Translations under genes and position numbers: made by a program | Assembly (NCBI RefSeq): GCF_004010195.1 | Contig: NC_057718.1 | Span: 89,072,787-89,136,786 of the forward strand | Length of the DNA stretch: 64,000 nucleotides | Direction: 5' to 3' | Source: Chiloscyllium plagiosum | Lineage: Eukaryota | Shown here: positions 1-52,972 of the stretch, in pieces | Numbering within the stretch: position 1 is the stretch's first letter | Layout: each line of letters begins with the position of its first letter | Notes under the pieces: generated by a model | Seen by the model: the letters and a program-made list of their open reading frames with translations, nothing else | Database searches by the model: none | Told to the model about the DNA's origin: nothing

Positions 1-372
1 GAATACTTCAACCCCAGGGCATCAATGTGGACTTTAACAGTTTCTTTATTTCCCCTTCCCCCACCTCACCCTAGTTCCAAACTTCCAGCTCAGCACTGTC
101 CCCATGACTTGTCCGGACTTGTCCTACCTGCCTATCTCCTTTTCCACCTATCCACTCCACCCTCTCCTCCCTGACCTATCACCTTCATCCCCTCCCCCAC
201 TCACCCATTGTACTCTATGCTACTTTCTCCCCACCCCCACCCTCCTCTAGCTTATCTCTCCACACTTCAGGCTCACTGCCTTTATTCCTGATGAAGGGCT
301 TTTGCCCGAAACGTCGATTTCGAAGCTCCTCGGATGCTGCCTGAACTGCTGTGGTCTTCCAGCACCACTAAT
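1..372 (+). mobile_element. 3' end of a Penelope-like retroelement (C-terminus of the GIY-YIG endonuclease ORF plus terminal repeat), cut by the window start
   Basis: 3-74 reads ILQPQGINVDFNSFFISPSPTSP*, resembling the LGTLxPxGxN end of PLE endonucleases; followed by a C/T-rich tract and a hammerhead motif at 284-319. Confidence 0.8.
284..319 (+). ncRNA. Minimal type I hammerhead ribozyme motif (family A), core intact
   Basis: attc-CTGATGA(288-294)-A-GGGC-tttt-GCCC-GAAA(308-311)-CG-TC-ga. Perfect 4-bp stem II, palindromic ACGU stem III, predicted cleavage after C315. Stem I is only ~2 bp. Confidence 0.75.
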
Positions 373-508
373 CCATAATTCTTCTGCTCATAGCCATCTT
401 GATCCAGGCTGCAACAAACATCTTCCTCGAAGACTGAGTGTAATTCCAGCAGTGGCCACTGCTCCGTCCTGGCACTGTTGGGACTACAGAGCTGCTAACC
501 AATCAGAT

Positions 509-5705: not shown

Positions 5706-6629
5706 CTCTGACTGCCAGGAAAATGTGCCTGTACCGTGTTAGAATCTTTTATCATTTTATTCCCACCAATAAACTAGTTACCAAAGACACGACAGAATGT
5801 TTAAAATGGAAGGATCTTTGCTCAACGTTTTATGGAACAGGACTTGAAAGACCAAGTCAAAGGCCATGTGAATTATTGTACATTATACGCAAACTAACTG
5901 GCTCAGTAACAGGGTTTAGTTATTGTAATACTTCCAAAACAATCCATCAGTCACACTGACGATAAGATATGAATTATGCCTCATAGAACAGAGGGAAAAA
6001 AAAGCTTAACTTTCTTATTTTGCATTTTATTAGAAGTCAAAAGATAAATCAATAGTAAAATGCGTTGTATCTTATTATTATGCCTGATGACTCTTCTGAT
6101 AAATAACCAACTTGAGGCAAAAGGCTTCATTGCAATTCGAAAGAGAAGACGACCTTGGGCTCTTTAATGTCAAAGGTGGCTGTTTCTTAGTGCCTGAGTG
6201 AGACTGTTGAGAAAAATGCAGTGGGATAAGCCAATATGAACGAATTTCTCCAGCTGCAAAATCTGCTCAGCAAGGCCTCCTTATATAAAAAAAGTAAAGG
6301 ATCCACAACAGAGGACCAGATGGAGGTGTTTTAGATCAATGCATTGGCACCTTCTGGATTAAGTCATTGTCCAGGCCAAAGATCCAAGTGATGTTTGTAT
6401 CTCTTGACCCATACAGGGAGCTGATGCCCCATGGTCAGATCATTGACTTATTCAATCAGTGATGCGCATCTGCAAAGCATCAAGACATCTCAAGGCGCAA
6501 AGGTCCAGGAGGGAAACGATCAATGTCTGAGTCCTAAAGCCACCCCCAGAGTGGAGTGAGGAATTCCATGTGCAGACCACAATCATTCTGCACAATCTTC
6601 ACACGTGCAACCCAATTCGCGAACAGCGG

Positions 6630-12882: not shown

Positions 12883-13285
12883 ATCCCAGCACTAGAAATG
12901 GCATCGTTGGCACTTTTCTACCCATGATCTTCCAATATCATTAAACGATTTACCCACTTTACAGCAAGGTGCCAGCTATGGACATCTCTTCTGCCAATGA
13001 CCTGAAATTTGTGGGTCCTCTGATTCTTGACCCTCCTGCTAATAGGACACAGTTTTTTTCTATTTACTTGGCCCTGACCCCCTTGTGATTCTGAACACCT
13101 TTGTCAAGTCACCTCTTAACCTGTTCTGATTTTTTTTTCTCCATTTAATACTTCATTCCTAAAACCTACAATGCTGGACTTTTTACTTCTCTATTTTTCT
13201 GAGAACATTAACTAAATAAGCTCAACCTAAGAACCTTCATGCCGCAGGTGGCACCATAAGTGGCGACTTGTACACTTTTGAGTAG

Positions 13286-13492
13286 CCATGATGTGGAGGG
13301 ACCAATGTCGGACTGGGGTGGACAAAGTTAAATATCACACAACAACAGGTTATTGTCCAACAGGTTTATTTGGAAGTATTAACTTTCAGAAAGCTGCTTC
13401 TTCATCAGATCGCAGCTACATGACAAAAGAGCAGTGTTCTGAAAGTTAGTGATTCCAAATAAACCTGTTGGACTATAACCTGATTTTTAACG
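13286..13492. mobile_element. Inverted-repeat PLE-derived insert, family B, with degenerate hammerheads on both strands
   Basis: Arms caggttattgtccaacaggtttatttggaa / ttccaaataaacctgttggactataacctg; 9-bp TSD tttgagtag (13277-13285, 13493-13501). Confidence 0.75.
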
Positions 13493-15200
13493 TTTGAGTA
13501 GATGTGAATCATTGAATCCCTACAGCATGGAAACAGGCCCTTTGGCCCAACAAGTCCACACTGACCCTATTACTCTCCATTTCCCCTGACTAATGCACCT
13601 AACCTACGCATCCCTGGACACTATGGGCAATTTAGTGTGGTCAATTCACCTAACCTGCACATCTTTAGACTGTGGGAGGAAACCGGCGCATCCAAAGGAA
13701 GCCCACGCAGTCATGGGGACAATGTACAAACACACACAGTCGCCCGAGGCTGGAATTGAACCTCGGTCCCTGCACTGTGAGGCAGCAGTGCAAACCTCTG
13801 TGCCACCATATGTGGCAATACAGCTAATTCTAACTCGAACTCTCCTCCTAGGGGAATTGCTTCAGTTTCTCCAATTGGCTGTCGTGTTTTTCTCAATTAT
13901 ACCTCAAAAGTCTTTCCTCAGCAGATGACCAGAGGTCATGGACAGTCACTATATAAATGCATACCTTTGTTTACAATTCTATTATGTTATAATAATTTCC
14001 CTTGTCTTAATGGATGCGCTGACCTCCAAATTCATGTGTGCTCCCACTGAAGACAACAGAGTGAGAACTTTCACTGCAGGGATTCCCTGTCCTTCACCCC
14101 ACCTCCTTCAACAAAGCAGGCCGTGACTGGGCAGACAATTATCCTGCCCCAACGCATCCACCAGCAAAGCTCAGGGACTGAAGCGTTTTGTGTGTACAGT
14201 TCCGGTTGCCAACCTCCAAAAAGGATATAGCGGTATTGGAAAAGGGACCAGAAACGTTGACAAAGAATGGAGCAGAGAAAGCTACCAAGAAAGGCTGGAA
14301 CTTTACCACTGGAAAAGCGAAGGCCAAAGAGTAGTCTGATTAAAGTTATGGATGGGTTTCATAGGGCAGACAACGATGCACTGTTTTCACTTGGGGGTAT
14401 TTCAGAACTCAACAACATAGATAATAAGATAGTCACTGATAAATCCAACAGGGAATTCAGGAGAAATGTCTTAGCAAAGAATGATTTGAATGCGGAGCGA
14501 TGTTCTTACTCAATGGAACATAGCCTAGAATCAGTTAAGGAACAACTAGACACATATGTGGGGAACAAAGGACTAGAAGGAGATGAAATAGAGCAGGATG
14601 AGCCTTGTGTGGATTATAAACTTCAGCACAGTTTGCTAAGCAATCTGTTTCTGTGCTGTAAAGTGTAATGTCAGTTTGATCAACCTGATTTGACCATATT
14701 TCGACCGACCTCTGGGGATAGGTACGATTTGAACCTGGACTTTCTGGCCAGAGATAGGGGCACTACCTCTGTACTGCGAAAGCCCTTTGCAACTGTGTGC
14801 TCTTTATTATTCATTCAAGGTCATTTAGTCACAAAGAATTAAGGGCTATGGGGACAATGCGGGTAAGTGGAGTTGAAATGCCCATCAGCCATGATTGAAT
14901 GGCGGAGTGGACTCGATGGGCCGAATGGCCTTACTTCCACTCCTATGTCTTATGGTCTTAAGGTATTGCTGGTAAGGCTAGTGTCACCTCTTGTTGCCTG
15001 GAGGAGGTGATGGTGAACTACCTTCTCAAACCACTGTACGCCAACATCCACAGGTCTGTCAGATAGGGAGATCTAGGGTCCTGATCTTGTAACCCTGGGA
15101 GAGCATTAATATGTTCCCAAGCTGGAGATGGTGTGTTTGACTTGGAGGGGAACTGGAAGGTGGTGATGTTACTATATGACTGCTGCCTTTGTTCTTCTAG

Positions 15201-15290: not shown

Positions 15291-15427
15291 TTCCTTCTGG
15301 TGGTAGAGATCACAGGTTTGTGAGGTGCTTTCAGCAATATCCAGCAGCAACTGACTAGCAAAGGAATAGAGAATGAAAGGTGACATTTTCCCAGCTTCTC
15401 ATAAAGTCAGCATGAAGTCAATGAAAT

Positions 15428-15650
15428 AAAAGCACGGAATGCTGGAGAAACTCAGCAGGTCTGGCAGTATCTGTGGAGAGAGTTAATGCTTTGAGTTCCA
15501 TAGAGCTCTTCTTCAGTTTCATGAAATCTCAATTCTGGAGAAGAGTCATATTCGACTTGAAGTATTCATTCTGTTTTTCTCTCCACAGAAACTACCGGAC
15601 TTTGGGAGTATTTAAGTACTTGCACACTTTTGTTTCAGATTTCCAGCGTA
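15428..15650. mobile_element. Inverted-repeat PLE-derived insert, family C (older)
   Basis: gctggagaaactcagcaggtctggcag...gagttaa arm followed by its degenerate reverse complement. Related copies at about 15985-16085(+), 17748-17835(-), 39145-39240(-), 41315-41440(+), 46420-46620 (both arms). Confidence 0.7.
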
Positions 15651-16190
15651 GAATCATAGAATCTGTGCGGTGCAGAAAGAGCCCATTTGGCCCATTGAGT
15701 CCGTACCAACCATCTGAAGAGCATAACTGTTAGCCGAATGCTATGCAAATAAGTCTCGGAGACCGAAGGAAGATTGAATGGTTTGTCAGTAACTGAGGAT
15801 CATCTGAGTCCAGATTTGGAAAACAATAATCGCTTGATTTCAAAACACTAATATCCCTGCTAGTTATTGGTAATGGCTTTACATGTAAGTGTTAGCTTGG
15901 ATGATGAGGAGATGGACATTCTGAACGGTGAAAGGGCATCTGCAGAGGTTGTGACTGAACTGGAGGTTATTTCCTTCCTGTCAATTGGACTCAAAACATT
16001 GGCTCTGCTTTTCTCTCTGCAGACCTGCTGAGTTCCTCCAGCATTTTGTTTGTATTTCAGATTTCCAGCATCCTTGCTTTCATTTTAACACGGAATCCTC
16101 AATGTCCCATTATCCCGGAAAGTACTAGTTGTGATTTCGCAACTCAAAAAGCTGAGCTCAGAGAGTTTGAGAAGAGATAGAGTTTATCTT

Positions 16191-24770: not shown

Positions 24771-24894
24771 GTAGGAACGTGGAGCTTTACTAATCTCCGA
24801 GTACCATGCGGTTTTGTAACTCGCGATGATTACGGCCCAAGCACAACGCATGAGTCTACACAGATGCAGAGCTGACAGTATTGGCTGTGTCAGA

Positions 24895-25250
24895 CCAGCA
24901 TTGAAGAGTGTGGTGCTGGAAAAGCACAGCCGGTGAGGCAGCATCTGAAGAGCAGGAGAGTCAACGTTTCGAGTTCTTCATCAGGATGTTGTCTTTGTCA
25001 AAGTAGTCCTGCTACCAAGCCTATGACTAACGTGGACTTTCTATGCTCCCAAATAAAGATTGTCAGTGCTTCATTAAAACCAGTTTTAGAAATTGCACAA
25101 GAGGAACTATCTTTGCTCTTCATTCCTGATGAAGAGCTTATGCTTGAAACAGCGATTCTCCTGCTCCTCGGATGCTGCCTGACCCTCTGTGCTTTTCCAG
25201 CACCACACTCTTCGACTCTGATCTCCAGATCTGCAGCCCTCACTTTCTCC
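24895..25250. mobile_element. Family A inverted-repeat PLE insert whose spacer contains direct-repeat copy 2 (24996-25115)
   Basis: Minus arm 24905-24987 ending cttcatcaggat; plus arm 25122-25250 starting attcctgatgaag; possible 8-bp TSD gtgtcaga (24887-24894, 25253-25260). Confidence 0.85.
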
Positions 25251-35700: not shown

Positions 35701-36054
35701 GTATAAATGCAAGAATGAGTTTTGCAATGACCTGGGATTCCAGAACTAGGGAGAGCTGAGAATGTGGACCACAGCGAATATGGGAGGTTTATACTTGGAA
35801 AGCTAATGAGGAGTTTGTTGATAGGATGGATTGAGGTTAGTTTGGAGGAGGTTCTTATAGGTGTCTCTGTGTTCTGAATTCCAAGTAACAGGATGTAAAA
35901 CAGGAGGAAAATACCCCAGCTGCTGGAAGTCTGAAAACAAAAAATATACATTCAGTTGGTTCAGCAGCAAATACAGTGTCAAAAATTGAATTAACATTTC
36001 AGAAGAGATTACAGGAATGTTGTCCTAACTGATCACTCAGTGCAGGAAGTGATC

Positions 36055-36230
36055 AAGACCAGAAGTCACTCGACACCAAGTTATAGTCCAAGCAGTTTAT
36101 TTGAAATAATAAGCTGCTCCTTCGTCAAATGGACATCAAGCGCTCTAAAAGCTTGTGAAATCAGATAAATGCGTTGGACTATAATCTGGTGTTGTGTGAC
36201 TTCTGACCTTGTTCACCACACCTCCACATA
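36055..36230. mobile_element. Decayed family B inverted-repeat insert
   Basis: agaagtcac..gacacca.gttatagtccaa / ttggactataatctggtgttgtgtgacttct arms. Confidence 0.7.
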
Positions 36231-38621: not shown

Positions 38622-38831
38622 AGTTAAAAGTCACACAACACCAGGCTATATTCCAATAGGATTATTTGGAAGTTGAAGCTTTTGGAGCGCTGCTCCTTCA
38701 TCAGGTAGCTGATGAGGGAGCAGCGCTCCAAAAGCTAGTGCTTCCAAATCAACCTGTTGGACTATAACCTGGTGTTGTGTGACTTTTAACTTTGTCCACC
38801 CCAGTCCAACACCGGCACCTCCACATCATGG
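38622..38831. mobile_element. Family B inverted-repeat PLE insert with back-to-back hammerhead motifs, inside a minus-strand CR1 fragment (38340-39620)
   Basis: Arms 38622-38705 and 38708-38791. Plus strand CTGATGA(38709-38715)-g-GGAGC-agc-GCTCC-aAAA-GC-TA-gtg; the same motif is on the minus strand. Both have GAAA>AAAA, consistent with CpG decay. Confidence 0.85.
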
Positions 38832-41086: not shown

Positions 41087-41637
41087 TTAATGTCCTGCCA
41101 GAGGACGTAGTGGAGGCTGGTACAATTACCAAACATTTAAAAGGCATCAGGATGGGTTGGGGAGGATTTAGCAGGACTTGGGCCAAATGGCGGGCAGATG
41201 GGATTAGATTAGTTTAGGATATCTGTTCAGCATGGATGAGTTGGACCAAAGGGCCTGTTTCCGTGCTGTGCATCTCTATGACTCTAAATGCCACCCTTCC
41301 CCATCTATCTTCATTTCTGACAAAGGGTCACTGGACTCGAAGTGTTAACTCTGCTCCTCTCCACACAAATGCTGCCAGACCTGGTGCGTTTCTCCAGCAT
41401 TTCCTGTTTCTGTTGACGATTTCCAGCATCCACAGTTATTTGTTTCAGGGAATAAAAGGTTTCATGTGGAAAAGGCAGGAGAGTGGAGTTGATGATTATC
41501 AGATCAGCCGTGGTCTCATTGAAACAGGAGGAGCTACTTCTGCTGCTACATCTAATGCGTTTACGGTTTTATGGGCATTTCAGTTTAGTATATGGTGAAT
41601 AGAGGGAGCTGCATTAGGACTGGGATCATTATTTTCT

Positions 41638-41865
41638 AAGTCGAGAGTGTGGTGCTAGAAAAGTGCAGAAGGCCAGGCAGCATCTGAGGAGCAGGAGAAT
41701 CGACGTTTCAGTCATAAGCCCTTCATCAGGAGGGCTATTCCTGATGAAGATCTTATGCCCAACGCATTGATTCTCCTGCTCCTCGGATGCTGCCTGACCT
41801 GCTGTGCTTTTCCAGCACCACACTCTCGACTCTGATCTCCAGCATCTGCAGCCCTCACTTTCTCC
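41638..41865. mobile_element. Family A inverted-repeat PLE insert
   Basis: Arms meet at cttcatcagga-gggcta-ttcctgatgaag; 11-bp TSD cattattttct (41627-41637, 41866-41876). Confidence 0.85.
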
Positions 41866-42089
41866 CATTATTTTCTTAACCCTATGACAACATGGCCCCT
41901 TGGAGTATCTGTGCTGCCAAAAGATCAAACATCTTAAGGTCCACCAAACTGATGGAAAGACTACCTCTGCAGGTAGTTTCTTCCCCTTACCTCCATCCAC
42001 CATTGCAGAGAAAAACTCTCATTCAGTCAGCATATATATCGTGGCAGCGTTCAAAAACGTAACACAGAGTATTGGCGTGAAACATGGCA

Positions 42090-42592: not shown

Positions 42593-42619
42593 TTGACTGA
42601 GAGTGGTTGGAATGGAAAA

Positions 42620-42831
42620 AGTGAGGACTGCAGATGCAGGAGACCAGAGTTGAAAAGTGTGGTGCTGGAAAAGCAGCAGGCCAGGCAGCATCCGAGGAGC
42701 AGGAGAATCAACGTTTCGGGCATAAGCCCTTCTTCAGGAAGAAAGGCTTATGCCCGAAACGTCGATTCTCTTGCTCCTCGGATGCTGCCTGGCCTGCTGT
42801 GTTTTTACAGCACCACACTTTTCAACTCTGT
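42620..42831. mobile_element. Family A inverted-repeat PLE insert
   Basis: 13-bp TSD ttggaatggaaaa (42607-42619, 42832-42844); ~95-bp arms. Confidence 0.85.
42708..42740 (-). ncRNA. Minimal hammerhead motif, core intact
   Basis: Reverse complement ttc-CTGAAGA-A-GGGC-ttat-GCCC-GAAA-CG-TT-ga. Confidence 0.7.
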
Positions 42832-45800
42832 TTGGAATGGAAAACCACTATCAGCAGAAGTTAAGGACTCAGCAAAACTCTGGAACGCTCTACAATGTCA
42901 ATCGTAGAACTGGTGAATAGTTCCTGCAAGGAAGGAGGTCACTTGGCCTGTCTTGTCTGTGCTAGTTCTCCATAACAGCCAGCCCCCTGAGTGGATGAAC
43001 AAAATGCTGTTGACTGTGGTATTCATAAAACCATCAGCAACTCTGACAAAGTTACTATCTTCTTAAGACTATCCCTGGTAAGTAAGATTGAGTGTGGCCA
43101 ATGAGACAGCAGAAGGTGACAAGGGGTTTGGTGAATCTTACCATCAGTAAGATTTCTGCTCCCTTTTCTAAAGAACATCTGGTCTTGATGTACTTTATGG
43201 CAACATGCTTTATCCAATTTCTTTATTAGCCCATTCCTTGGCTATTTGCTGTGCAAAGGTCAAAGGATGTACAAAAAAATCATGATGTCTTGATTAATTC
43301 ATATAAAGCACTCCAAAATGTTACAGATGATTCACAGTCCTGTTTAGCTCAAGTTTATTTAAATCTGGAATGTGTCAGTGAGATTAGGTCTGTTTTAGAG
43401 CCACCAGAGCTTATTTTTAAACTGCTGTCTGTTACCTCAATAGAACCTCAGTCTATTACCTCAATAGTATACTCGCCAACTTTAAGGGCTTTTAAATGGC
43501 CATTGGATAAACATATGGATGATAATGGAATAGTGTAGGTTGGATGGGCTTCAGATCAGTTTCACAGGTCGGCGCAACATCGAGGGCCGAAGGGCCTGTA
43601 CTACGATTTAATGTTCTATGTTCTATAGCGAAGGGACGTGGAGAATAAGAATAGTCCCTGCCTGTTCCTCAGGCATTAAGGAAATGCTCAGTAATCCAAT
43701 ATGGGCCTCAACGTCCACTACATCCTGTATTGGGCTGGTCACTCTTTGCACTCACTGTGCATTCAGCACTCAGTTTTCTCAGGCACAGCACAGCAGTTCA
43801 ACAAGAGCTCCACCTGCCATCCAAAGATAAACCAAACCTTGAGCTCTCCTCCTGTTCCGATTTCAAAGCCTGGCCTGTTGCTAGCCATCTCAGTCCTTCT
43901 CAAGCAACACTCACCGTGCAAGAGATCCATTTTGTCCAATTTGTTTGCTTTGTAGTTCAAGGTTGCTGGCAGGAATCAATTCTGAGGCTGTCATCTCTCC
44001 CAGAGTCACTTGCAGAGGTGTGCTTATTTCTGGAAAATCAATCTCTTGTCAGTTTGACTACAATTGATGAACGCGCAACACCTCTGCAGACCAACAATCG
44101 ATCTGACCGTGTGGTCCAAATTGTCAAGAACAGGCTGATTTCTATTCCCCCAAGATTCCTTCCCATCTCACATGTGCTGCTGAGTCCATTAAAAAAGTGT
44201 GATTATTGCTTAACACTTCTTGTTAGCCACTTGATTTCAATTGTAGGTGTAAATATGCACATAGCTACAATTCAAGGTAAAGTCTCCATCATCCTACAGA
44301 CAATAAGGCTGCTCTTTCATTAGAGAGAGAGAGAGAGATGATTGGTGGTGGCTTAACCTGAGGCTCAGGCAAGTGACAACAGTTGACAGGTCTTGCTGTT
44401 GATAACTTGATTTCTGGCATGAAAATGAAAATACAAACTTTGAAATGGAAATGCTTATGCTGTAGAATGAATACAGACTTGCTCCAACACTGACTTTACC
44501 ATCCTTCTCATTTCGGAAGTGAAACCTGATGCAGGAACTAATCCTGACTATCCAATAAACTGCCCCTTTTCCTCATTAGCTTCAGACCAAAGTGTCAGTC
44601 CAAATGGCTTCCATCATATCTCCATTTAGAATTAATCTATTGAATTGGTTGAGAATAAGGAGGCCATTAGGCCCATCGTTTCTGCGCTGGGTTTTTCAAA
44701 GAGTTATTCTATTAGCTCCACATTGCCCCTTCCCCATATTGACAGCAACATAAATTCATGTGGCACCTTTAAAATTATAGAATGTCCCAAAGCATGTGAC
44801 TAAGTTGTATGAAACGAAATTCAGTCAGATGACCGAAAGGCGGTTAACAAGGAAGATATGAGGGGTGACTTGTAGAAAAAAGTGAGGTGGGGAAGTGTAA
44901 GGAGGGAATTCCAAGAATTAAGGCAGTGACAATTTGTGCACAGCAAGATCCCACCTGTGATCCTGTGGTAATAACCTGACAATCTGTTTTGATTGAGAGA
45001 CAAATATTGGCTGGGACCAGGGAACATTCACCTGGTCCAGTGCAACTGTTACCGTGAGACATTTTTCATTCACTGAAGGGTGACGACAGGGTCTCAGGGT
45101 GACATCTCATCCAAACATAGGCACCTCTGACAGCGCAGCAATCCCTCACCACTTCAGTGAGATATTAATTTTGAGATTCTGTGCTTGAATCATGGCCTTC
45201 TGACTCAGAGGTGAGAACGCTACCGTGTGAGGTGCAGCTGATATGAAATAGAATAATGTTAAAAGTGATAATGATACTGAATACAATCAGCAGAGTGTCC
45301 ATACATTGAACAGTATGGAGATAAAGGCTCACAATGGCTATCTGACATTGTCCTGAATAGAAAAAGGTTTACATTCCCCCACTAACTATTATATTCCATC
45401 TAATGACTATGTTACAATACTTCAGATGCTCAGCACTGTCTGGAAACACAGCTGTAATGGGCTCCCTTATATCCAGCGTTTGATCTGTTTAAAGATGGAT
45501 TCCGTAGATAAAGCCCTTTCTTAAGATGTCATTTGGCAGTTGCCAAATGAGTGATAACATCATGCAATAACTACGAATATAAATTGTATTTTTTTTTTAT
45601 TAGGTAACCTCAAAAGCAGGATCCAGAAACACATTTTTTTTCAGATGGGTCAGGTTGTTTTTGTACATTAGAACCATGAAGAAAGTCAAATACCTAAAAT
45701 TTGAGTAAACAACGCGTATAGTGACCTGAATCTTTCTGTCGCCCTCTATCTTTTCATTAAAAATCAGGTAGAAACTTGGGTCATTCCTTATGAAATCTCC

Positions 45801-46318: not shown

Positions 46319-47207
46319 GTTTCTGGGTTTTGAGTTTGTACCCAACAGGTTTTCTGTGCATGTGCAGTTAACGAACTTGTGAAGAATTTTGCATTCATGA
46401 TGACTTCCTTTTAAAGACGAAAACAGAAATGGCTGGAAAAGCCCTGCCGGTCTGGCAGCATTTGTGGAGAGAAATAGTTTCAGGTTGAGTGACTCTTCCT
46501 CAATTCCGGAAATGTTAACTCTGATTTCTGTTCACAGATTCTGCCAGACCTGCTGAGCTTTTCTAGCAATTTCTACTTTTGTCTCTGATTTACAGCATCC
46601 ACCGTTCTTTTCATTGTTATTTCCTTGAATACCATATTCAGCATGAGTGGGTTTTGTGTGCACCTCAAATGGACCTCTGATTATTTTAGATTGTTTTGTC
46701 ACTCAGTACTGTAAGTAACAGGGCCTCAAAAGTATGTTAATGATTTCTGGAACTTTGTTTTTATTTCAAATGTAAGGGAAACACCCATCGCTTAAATACA
46801 GAGGCTTTTAGTTTCCCTTTTTGACTTTGAATTTGGAGCCGTGCTGTAAGGTCTTTGGAATAGGGTGGCTGCATACAGAAATGTTCCTGAGAAGGGCAGA
46901 AAATAAAGTGAGCTAGATTACCTTAGAGTGAAGAGTTAGTGTTGGTTCCAGACCAGAAGTGTTGAGATGAGACTCTGAAGAGGTTACTTAAAGCAGAGTA
47001 CACTGAAGCTCAGATATATGCGCGTTCCAGGAAGAAGCTGTCTGTAGTTCTGGTCTAAAAGTGGTGTGAGTATTATACAAGTTGTGTTTTGGGTTCTGTA
47101 CCATCAATGTGTCTTGAGTATGATACATAGTGCAATACAGTGGCTCAGTGGTTGGCACTGTTAGCTCACAGTGCCAAGCACTCGGGTTTGATTCCAGTCT
47201 CGGGTGA

Positions 47208-52019: not shown

Positions 52020-52972
52020 TAAATACAGTAAATGCCAGGACACTTATGGGCATTAATAAACAGAGTGATCTAGAGGTGCATGTCCGTAGCTCCCTGAAAG
52101 TGGCAACACAAGTGGATGAGGTGATAAAGAAGGCATATGACATGCTTGCTTTTATCAGTCAGGGCCCTGAGTACAAAGATTGGGAAGTCATGGTATAGCT
52201 GTGTAAGACTTTAGTCTAGATGAGAGTAGTGCTGGAAAAGCACAGCAGGTCAGGCAGCATCCGAGGAGCAGGAAAGTCGACGTTTCGAGCAAAAGCCCTT
52301 CATCAGGAATATTCCTAATGAAGGGCTTTTGCCGGAAACGTCGACTTTCCTGCTCCTCAGATGCTGCCTGACCTGCTGTGCTTTTCCAGCACCATTCTAA
52401 TCTAGACTCTGGTTTCCAGCGTCTGCAGTCCTTATTTTTGCCTGTGTAAGACTTTAGGCCACATTTGGAGTATTGCGTGCAATAGTGGTCATTCTACTAT
52501 TAGAAGGATGTGACGGCATTAGAAACGGTGCAAAAGAGGTTTACCAGGATGTTGTTTGGATTGGAGTGTACTGGCTAAGAGGAGAGGTTGGACAAACTTG
52601 GATTGTTTTTGCTACAGTGTTGGAGACTGAGAGGTGACCTGATAGAAGTACAGAAAGTGATGAGGAGCATGGATAAAATGGATAGTCGAAGTGCACTTCC
52701 CAGGCTGAAATACTGTGGGGGGAGGCTTAAGGGGTTTAAGGGGAGAGGGAGAAATATTAAATGAAACATGTGAGAGGAAAATCTTTTTATGCTGAGTAGT
52801 ATGTGCCTGGAACATGCTACCAGGGGAGGTGGTAGAAGCAGGTGCAGTGGCAACATTTAAGAGACATTTCCTCAGACACATGTGCAGGCAGATGTGATTA
52901 GTTTCGAATGGCTCATGGTGGCACAGGCAGACTGGGATAAAGGACCTGTTCCTGTGTCGTACTGTTCTATGT
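52020..52972 (+). mobile_element. CR1 3' fragment interrupted by a PLE insert
   Basis: DLEVHVRSSLKVATQVDEVIKKAY..LAFI, continuing after 52457 with PHLEYCVQ and VQKRFTRML. Confidence 0.85.
52215..52441. mobile_element. Family A inverted-repeat PLE insert, near-perfect palindrome centred at 52310/52311
   Basis: Centre catcaggaat|attcctaatg; 16-bp TSD ctgtgtaagactttag (52199-52214, 52442-52457). Minus-strand hammerhead 52277-52310 has an intact core (CUGAUGA-A-GGGC-uuuu-GCUC-GAAA-CG-UC). Confidence 0.9.

What the first reader, a model, noticed from the sequence alone, without database searches (positions are those of the whole stretch)
52199..52457. Head-to-head ribozyme palindromes inserted as single events with 9-16 bp TSDs
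Seen: inserts at 13286, 41638, 42620 and 52215 have clear TSDs (38622 and 24895 less certain). Each consists of two inverted copies of the same terminal repeat, and the fold-back point usually lies within about 10 nt 5' of CUGANGA. One arm is longer than the other. At 52215 the host CR1 sequence resumes exactly across a 16-bp TSD, so the palindrome arrived in one step. Established: PLE insertions often include an inverted 5' segment. Inference: either a non-autonomous hairpin-shaped retroelement, or a reproducible fold-back during reverse transcription positioned by the ribozyme structure. The breakpoint is ~30 nt upstream of the predicted cleavage site, so simple cleavage does not explain it.
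Basis: partly seen in the sequence, partly recalled or inferred. Interest (0 to 1): 0.7.

Follow-up and report, generated by a model that had tools for sequence, protein, structure and literature searches.

The report
Cap-marked twin-primed Penelope palindromes
This 227-base mirror-image insert is one of thousands of stubs of a ribozyme-bearing Penelope-like jumping gene, a layout already described for that class, and the stubs' fixed start point and extra G suggest that each was likely built on landing from two short DNA copies of the capped start of the element's RNA, one primed on each cut strand, which would explain how these elements make their inverted ends.

Summary
The palindromes are real: 52215-52441 is a 96-nt arm plus a 131-nt arm (35-nt tail) inside an exact 16-bp TSD. 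They are termini of Penelope-like elements (PLEs) carrying minimal hammerheads. Inverted copy, one-sided tail and TSD are already in print for PLEs. In a 1.42-Mb sample, 33 of 40 long/short palindromes have 11-17-bp TSDs (null 0 of 199). Junctions vary (34 kinds in 50), so no master hairpin. The recurring breakpoint is likely the RNA's capped start, not the ribozyme: it lies about 30 nt after a TATA-like box, and a non-parental G precedes it in 56-73% of genome-wide rows versus 29% at a control site. Small in-sample checks of this G were inconclusive. Either arm can reach further 5', and some junctions carry the G on both arms, which argues against fold-back and for two cDNAs primed at staggered nicks. 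Three of 837 palindromes mix two source lineages. Corrections: usually only one arm ends at the ribozyme edge, no window insert has two intact motifs, and the host repeat lacks 4 nt versus paralogues. The scan found this reading before, here and in other genomes.

The parts
52199..52214 (.). Left copy of 16-bp target-site duplication
   Evidence: identical to right copy
52215..52310 (-). Short arm (no tail), 96 nt, family A PLE terminus from +1 (A of ATTCC, at 52310) to +96
52279..52306 (-). Minimal hammerhead motif with intact core (CUGAUGA, bulged A, 4-bp helix II, GAAA-CG-UC); predicted cut after 52279
   Evidence: motif as in PMC4209133; activity untested
52311..52441 (+). Long arm, 131 nt, from +1 (52311) to +131
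52315..52342 (+). Minimal hammerhead motif with a mutated core (CUAAUGA) and a helix II mismatch
52407..52441 (+). 35-nt one-sided PLE tail
   Evidence: 3' ends bimodal near +95 and +131; tail described in PMC8557442 and PMC11167929
52442..52457 (.). Right copy of the 16-bp TSD
52050..52198 (+).
   Evidence: paralogues run across the site
52458..52620 (+). Host repeat, right flank; 4 nt shorter at the site than paralogues
41638..41865 (.). Family A palindrome (short arm -, long arm +), short filler at centre, 11-bp TSD at 41627-41637 and 41866-41876
   Evidence: left junction also covered in organism B runs X9 and X14
42620..42831 (.). Family A palindrome (long arm -, short arm + starting inside the ribozyme core), 13-bp TSD at 42607-42619 and 42832-42844
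24892..25250 (.). Family A inverted pair with a 135-nt unrelated spacer (24987-25121); TSD doubtful
13286..13492 (.). Family B palindrome (long arm -, short arm +), 9-bp exact TSD at 13277-13285 and 13493-13501
38622..38831 (.). Family B palindrome (short arm -, long arm +); TSD degenerate
1..379 (+). Longer family A copy: end of the endonuclease frame, C-rich pseudo-LTR, TATA-like TTATCT at 252-257, ATTCC at 284, hammerhead, short-type 3' end; shows the parent sequence upstream of the breakpoint

Best explanation
These palindromes are short insertions of Penelope-like retrotransposon termini, each likely assembled at the moment of insertion from two cDNAs that ran off the capped 5' end of the element's RNA. 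Inferred steps: the element's promoter starts transcription 4-8 nt before CUGANGA, so the hammerhead sits at the front of the RNA and is copied uncut. A dimeric RT/GIY-YIG enzyme nicks both strands about 15 bp apart. One 3' end primes at the outer start site (about +131, giving the tail) and the other at the inner site (about +95). Both copy toward the cap, often adding a cap-templated base. The two cDNA ends are trimmed and joined head to head by end joining with microhomology or filler, and fill-in makes the TSD. Usually both arms come from one source, probably one RNA; rarely from two. The finished palindrome is predicted to be a dead passenger whose transcript folds into one long hairpin instead of a ribozyme.
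For: Shown: parent with a GIY-YIG-like frame upstream. 3' ends at +88..101 in 85 and +128..133 in 98 of 253 arms. Long+short pairing in 46 of 50 pattern-selected loci and 14 of 18 family B pairs. TSD in 33 of 40, 31 of them 13-17 bp, null 0 of 199; mode 15 (19 of 38). 5' ends at -2..+3 in 68 of 169. TTAT[CG]T at -32 or -30 in 27 of 49 long copies. In family B, TATAAA lies 32 nt before the G-marked A, at the same place in 10 of 20 motif-selected copies. Non-parental G directly 5' of the start in 59 of 81, 35 of 63 and 56 of 84 rows in three lineages with three different start bases (expected share 0.26), against 29 of 100 at an internal control site. G on both arms in L196 and L235. Short arm further 5' in 17, long arm in 12, level in 6 of 35. 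Hairpin -173 kcal/mol. From papers: the anole PLE protein nicks and extends both strands, starts at two internal sites that bound the tail, is predicted dimeric and uses uncleaved RNA (PMC11167929); an untemplated 5' G is read as a cap signature in L1 (PMC9341517).
Against: The in-sample cap-G test was not significant (11 of 37, p=0.19), and internally truncated control arms also showed G in 24 of 55. The genome-wide G counts are hand counts of the first 100 listed rows, with 19, 37 and 16 rows removed where the opposite arm could supply the base; the patterns exclude C at the tested place. The 52215 junction has no G. Family B starts split between -9..-7 (11) and -3..0 (14) among 52 arms that do not extend upstream, and its TSDs are weak (1 of 18 at the strict score). 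Many single arms lack a partner or TSD (TSD in 10 of 45 long and 10 of 24 short solos). The transcription start was not measured (uninformative). Later deletions at palindrome centres could produce some of the arm asymmetry. One RNA versus two is unresolved: the two lineages tested differ in age (arm-arm 0.9% versus 3.0%), so rare mixing is expected either way.
Confidence: 0.68

Rival explanations
1. Fold-back (self-priming): one cDNA runs to the RNA end or stalls at the ribozyme, snaps back and copies itself up to about +95. This includes the antisense-template self-priming proposed for Adineta PLEs.
For: Arms nearly always come from one lineage (565 + 269 concordant versus 3 mixed). Short overlaps of 1-4 nt occur at 13 of 40 junctions. 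Self-priming is the published proposal (PMC3846280).
Against: The short arm exceeds the long arm 5' in 17 of 35 cases, by 20 nt or more in 8, and by about 100 nt in a long palindrome on C8. Both arms can carry the extra G. Short-arm ends match the 3' ends of unpaired short copies. Mixed-lineage arms sit inside one 14-16-bp TSD.
Confidence: 0.14
2. Two-ended priming is right, but the breakpoint is set by ribozyme structure or a protein footprint that stops the RT, not by the RNA's 5' end.
For: In the commonest family A lineage the start (ATTC) coincides with the 5' strand of helix I. In family B, 14 arms start at -3..0.
Against: One family A lineage ends 4 nt further out and family B 8 nt before CUGANGA, each with the extra G and about 30 nt after a TATA-like box. 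An RT moving 3' to 5' has already removed helix I's other strand (inference). Longer copies read through the site freely (49 long copies).
Confidence: 0.1
3. A non-autonomous hairpin retroelement: a palindromic master copy is transcribed and reinserted.
For: Some junctions recur: the 52215 junction in 35 exact genome matches and 13 of 22 called best hits (biased by the query); the AT-overlap junction in 12 of 50.
Against: 34 distinct junctions in 50 loci. Palindromes occur in every lineage with arms matching each other. There is a continuum up to 1-kb palindromes with the same tail and TSD. Recurrent junctions are the simplest joins of two run-off ends.
Confidence: 0.03
4. Two independent insertions, or later rearrangement or conversion, made the palindromes.
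For: A few long+long pairs lack a TSD. The 3 mixed-lineage inserts could be ectopic conversion.
Against: One TSD of narrow length encloses both arms in 33 of 40. Strict long+short pairing. No clear excess of shared rare variants between arms (9 versus 4).
Confidence: 0.03

Closest known systems
Insertion unit of endonuclease-positive Penelope-like elements (Adineta Pen2a, PMC3846280; general scheme PMC8557442 Fig. 2; D. virilis Penelope with 34-bp repeat, PMC2377424)
   Same: Inverted 5'-truncated terminal copy, 30-40-nt tail on one end only, TSD, palindromic head-to-head junction.
   Different: Here most units hold no ORF, both arms are about 100-130 nt, the TSD is longer and narrow (mode 15), and 5' ends pile up at a putative capped start. 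The paper proposes self-priming; these data favour two primed cDNAs.
Poseidon element of Anolis carolinensis (PAc) in vitro, PMC11167929
   Same: Hammerhead about 100-130 nt from two RT start sites that bound the tail; both strands nicked and extended; cleavage not needed.
   Different: Different clade (family A has a Neptune/Nematis-type Zn linker). The text read does not link the two sites to inverted arms or to run-off at a cap.
Minimal hammerheads (min-HHR) of metazoan PLEs, PMC4209133
   Same: Core, bulged base, no true helix III, palindromic ACGU or AGCU; the paper notes dual motifs 100-700 bp apart on opposite strands.
   Different: Here the motifs abut, are mostly decayed, and are predicted to be locked in a hairpin. 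Head-to-head copies cannot form the tandem dimer needed for cleavage.
L1 twin priming (Ostertag and Kazazian 2001; mechanism recalled, only the citation seen)
   Same: Both target ends prime cDNA; inverted segment and end-joined junction inside one TSD.
   Different: L1 twin priming splits one RNA into non-overlapping parts; here both ends copy the same stretch, giving a palindrome.
Non-LTR retrozymes (bioRxiv 10.64898/2026.07.22.740005)
   Same: ORF-less, hammerhead-bearing, PLE-derived repeats.
   Different: Retrozymes are head-to-tail tandems; these are head-to-head, TSD-flanked and show no sign of self-propagation.

Membership tests
EN+ Penelope-like element | C-terminal GIY-YIG endonuclease upstream of the terminal repeat | tested here: met
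   206-aa frame L091:8915-9535(-) with IYCI..YIGETG directly upstream of a family A terminus; ESM Atlas top hits 0.97, GIY-YIG on 13% of cluster members. Pfam, NCBIfam and PDB sequence searches gave no relevant hit.
EN+ Penelope-like element | Telomerase-like RT in the same ORF | not tested
   No full-length ORF was examined; only frameshifted downstream fragments were seen.
EN+ Penelope-like element | 30-40-nt tail at one end | tested here: met
   About 35 nt in family A and about 37 nt in family B.
EN+ Penelope-like element | Inverted 5'-truncated copy within one TSD | tested here: met
   33 of 40 short units; long units too.
EN+ Penelope-like element | Family B linked to a PLE ORF | not tested
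   Assigned by shared hammerhead, tail and long/short layout only.
Neptune/Nematis clades | [quoted passage not shown] | tested here: met
   CxxxxCxxC read in the frame; feature per PMC8557442.
Neptune/Nematis clades | Placement in an RT tree | not tested
   No RT tree was built.
Minimal type I hammerhead | CUGANGA, bulge, helix II, GAAA, palindromic 15.1-16.1, UH | tested here: met
   60 of 90 family A arms spanning the core. Rfam gave no hammerhead hit at E<=1.
Minimal type I hammerhead | Self-cleavage | not testable with these tools
   Indirect only: few arm starts at the cut site (4 of 169).
Non-LTR retrozyme | Head-to-tail tandem with a hammerhead in each unit | tested here: not met
   Units are head to head.
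Non-autonomous hairpin element or MITE | One conserved internal structure shared by the copies | tested here: not met
   34 junctions in 50 loci; arm lengths vary.

The most novel reading that the evidence does not exclude
The palindromes are a mass in vivo record of the unsolved PLE integration step. An asymmetric dimer nicks both strands about 15 bp apart and copies the capped leader of the RNA twice, from two fixed start sites, like a strong-stop cDNA at each target end. It occasionally uses two RNAs from different source loci. This would account for the tail, the inverted pLTR and the TSD in one mechanism and replace the self-priming model.
Probability: 0.55. Interest if true: 0.62.

Novelty: new member of a known kind. 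Interest (0 to 1): 0.45.

Why it matters
How PLEs make inverted ends and the one-sided tail is described as unresolved (PMC8557442), and the standing proposal is self-priming (PMC3846280). About 100,000 short family A palindromes (extrapolated from 40 in 1.42 Mb; 2,051 exact-centre matches) give a natural data set that separates the models. They also map a likely PLE transcription start and place the hammerhead at the RNA's 5' end. The element itself is an ordinary decayed insertion. In practice such stubs can be mistaken for MITEs or microRNA hairpins (weak Rfam miRNA hits).

Tried and rejected
Rfam scan: no hammerhead model hit; only miRNA-like hairpin matches below gathering score. Pfam, NCBIfam and PDB sequence searches did not recognise the endonuclease fragment. 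Single-arm folds were no more stable than shuffles. Cleavage as the cause of the breakpoint was rejected. A splice acceptor at the breakpoint was rejected, as the parent has C or T at -1 in 45 of 49 long copies. Empty orthologous site: not found; contigs of organism B run from the flank 63 nt into the 41638 arm, so that insert is shared, and repeat-derived joints swamp the rest. No RNA holder was listed. One single-cell RNA run showed reads on both strands and no start peak, which is uninformative on the start site, and the second run laid nothing. The search with the 24895 spacer found no second copy of it among 40 scored candidates. The best hits are biased toward the query's junction and were not used for breakpoint statistics. 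The single-base-spacer test (30 G/C versus 12 A/T of 42 loci, hand count) is ambiguous because some parents have C at -1, and was not counted. Literature searches that found no paper describing these short palindromes or twin priming in PLEs: (the library lacks most subscription journals and Repbase/Dfam notes; supplements were not read).

Full report
Observation. The insert at 52215-52441 is a head-to-head pair: a 96-nt arm on the minus strand and a 131-nt arm on the plus strand, joined without spacer at GGAAT|ATTCC, between two identical 16-bp copies. I number the repeat from the A of ATTCC (+1); CUGANGA starts at +5 and the predicted cut is after +32. TSDs at 41638, 42620 and 13286 are real; 38622 and 24895 are doubtful. 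The six inserts belong to two families. Only 4 of 12 window arms keep an intact core, never two in one insert. Paralogues of the host repeat run across the site, but 12 of 14 flank pairs show 4 extra bases, so the host copy lacks a short unit there, lost before or after insertion.

Sample. I took 27 blocks at round coordinates on large contigs plus the window: 1,464,000 bases, 1,416,695 unmasked. A profile and pairwise alignment to 32 real longer copies gave 271 family A arms, 253 at 80% identity or more; 227 with higher scores were used further. Family B gave 84 arms.

Identity. Longer family A copies continue upstream through a C-rich pseudo-LTR into a reading frame with a GIY-YIG-like motif and a CxxxxCxxC linker. 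The ESM Atlas puts it with clusters in which 13% of members carry GIY-YIG (0.97); Pfam, NCBIfam and PDB gave nothing relevant. A linker Zn motif marks the Neptune and Nematis clades (PMC8557442). Window 1-379 is such a longer copy. The core matches the minimal hammerhead of PLEs (PMC4209133) in 60 of 90 spanning arms. No RT tree was built, and family B was not tied to an ORF.

Anatomy. 3' ends fall at +88..101 (85 of 253) or +128..133 (98 of 253); the gap is the known PLE tail. Palindromes pair one long with one short arm: 46 of 50 pattern-selected loci, with 2 long+long and 2 scored short+short, and 14 of 18 family B pairs. Of 40 sampled short family A units, 33 have a TSD, 31 of them 13-17 bp; swapped flanks gave 0 of 199. 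Family B TSDs are weaker (1 of 18 at the strict score). The same layout holds for 0.7-1-kb palindromes that include endonuclease sequence. Single arms are also common and mostly lack a detectable TSD.

No master hairpin. A centre pattern has 2,051 exact matches, and the first 50 hold 34 different junctions. Arms of one insert differ by 6.1% (133 of 2,179 non-CpG sites, 36 inserts) against 15.3% to other copies, and share lineage marks. The 52215 junction recurs (35 exact matches) but is a simple join of two ends.

The breakpoint. Of 169 family A arms starting between -29 and +60, 68 start at -2..+3 and 4 at +31..+35. A TTAT[CG]T motif lies at -32 or -30 in 27 of 49 long copies. In family B, TATAAA lies 40 nt before the C of CUGANGA in 10 of 20 copies chosen for having such a motif; starts cluster at -9..-7 (11) and -3..0 (14) among 52 arms that do not extend upstream. 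TATA spacing and the initiator consensus are recalled. I then asked which base precedes copies that stop at these places, where the parent has C. By hand count of the first 100 listed rows, after removing rows where the opposite arm could supply the base, G stood in 59 of 81 (lineage starting at CTTTATTCC; 19 removed; 627 matches), 35 of 63 (starting at ATTCC; 37 removed; 5,228 matches) and 56 of 84 (family B, ACAACC; 16 removed; 470 matches). The expected share is 0.26 (p below 1e-6 each). At an internal control site it was 29 of 100, none removed, with 128 matches. An untemplated G is read as a cap signature in L1 (PMC9341517). Against this: the in-sample test gave 11 of 37 (p=0.19), internally truncated arms gave 24 of 55, and 52215 has no G. 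RNA reads did not test the start. I read the breakpoint as the capped transcription start; this is inferred.

Two cDNAs rather than fold-back. A snap-back copy of the tailed cDNA cannot hold sequence that the tailed arm lacks, and a tail-less cDNA cannot supply the tail. Yet the short arm reaches further 5' in 17 of 35 unflagged units, the long arm in 12, and 6 are level; 5 were flagged and left out. Later central deletions could explain part of this. L196 and L235 have the G on both arms. Two marked lineages gave 565 and 269 concordant palindromes and 3 mixed ones, against 366 expected from free mixing. The mixed ones lie inside single 14-16-bp TSDs, and L263 is a fourth mixed case with a third lineage. 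The two lineages differ in age (0.9% versus 3.0% arm-arm, 9 and 5 loci), so the low rate does not prove a single RNA. The mixed cases suggest that two templates can serve, or that one arm was converted later. The anole PLE enzyme nicks and extends both strands, starts at two sites that bound the tail, is predicted dimeric and does not need ribozyme cleavage (PMC11167929), which fits each step.

Function of the product. The 52215 transcript is predicted to fold into one hairpin (-173 kcal/mol, z -23), which would mask both motifs; metazoan minimal hammerheads need a tandem dimer and cleave poorly (PMC4209133). The 41638 insert is shared with organism B.

Known and new. The layout is in print (PMC3846280; PMC8557442; PMC2377424), and PMC4209133 notes opposite-strand pairs. 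My searches found no paper on cap-marked run-off or two-ended priming in PLEs; the library is incomplete. What I read: PMC11167929 and PMC4209133, parts 1-2 of 4 each; bioRxiv 10.64898/2026.07.22.740005, part 1 of 5 and passages; passages only of PMC8557442, PMC3846280, PMC2377424 and PMC9341517; no supplements. L1 twin priming and polymerase-theta-type fillers are recalled. My reading was noted and the cap idea first tested, before the look-ups. Searches then showed that other agents reached the same reading many times, in this and at least 9 genomes, and one note on capped RNA was seen; these notes are not independent support.

Verdict. A real feature and a new member of a known kind. Its value lies in the mechanism it records: interest 0.45.

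Noticed in passing
window 24987-25121: 135-nt spacer between the two arms of the 24895 pair; no second copy among scored candidates and no clear TSD of its own; either captured filler DNA or a later insertion.
   Followed up: partly
L273 (centre of locus): The two arms look reciprocally mosaic for two lineage marks, with a short duplication in one arm, inside an exact 16-bp TSD.
   Followed up: no
L059 near 5,900-6,030 (G000:C4, about 40,035,900) and L033 near 2,560-2,690: Short arm paired with an inverted piece that is only the tail (about +109..130 and +96..128), TSD 15 and 12 bp: the tail can sit at either end.
   Followed up: partly
G000:C8:30009555-30010485 and G000:C14:40029292-40030471: 0.9-1.2-kb palindromes containing endonuclease and pLTR sequence, with the same long/short ends and 15-16-bp TSDs.
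   Followed up: partly
L193, L198, L201, L204, L217: Junction fillers copied from the hammerhead's helix II region, like templated insertions of end joining (the likeness is recalled).
   Followed up: no
L202, L208, L210, L218, L223, L236: Short arms whose outer end lies well inside (about +48..73) yet abuts a good TSD; 7 of 38, so the inner start site is looser than the outer one.
   Followed up: partly
window 46415-46584, 15403-16080, 36049-36216: Further decayed inverted pairs: one family B, the others of a related, more diverged family that was not analysed.
   Followed up: no
window 52442-52462: Host repeat lacks a 4-nt unit directly after the right TSD copy compared with paralogues, shifting its reading frame.
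   Followed up: yes
G000:C7, about 20,040,340-20,040,800 (L065): Family A palindrome split at its centre by about 230 nt of another repeat, TSD still readable.
   Followed up: no
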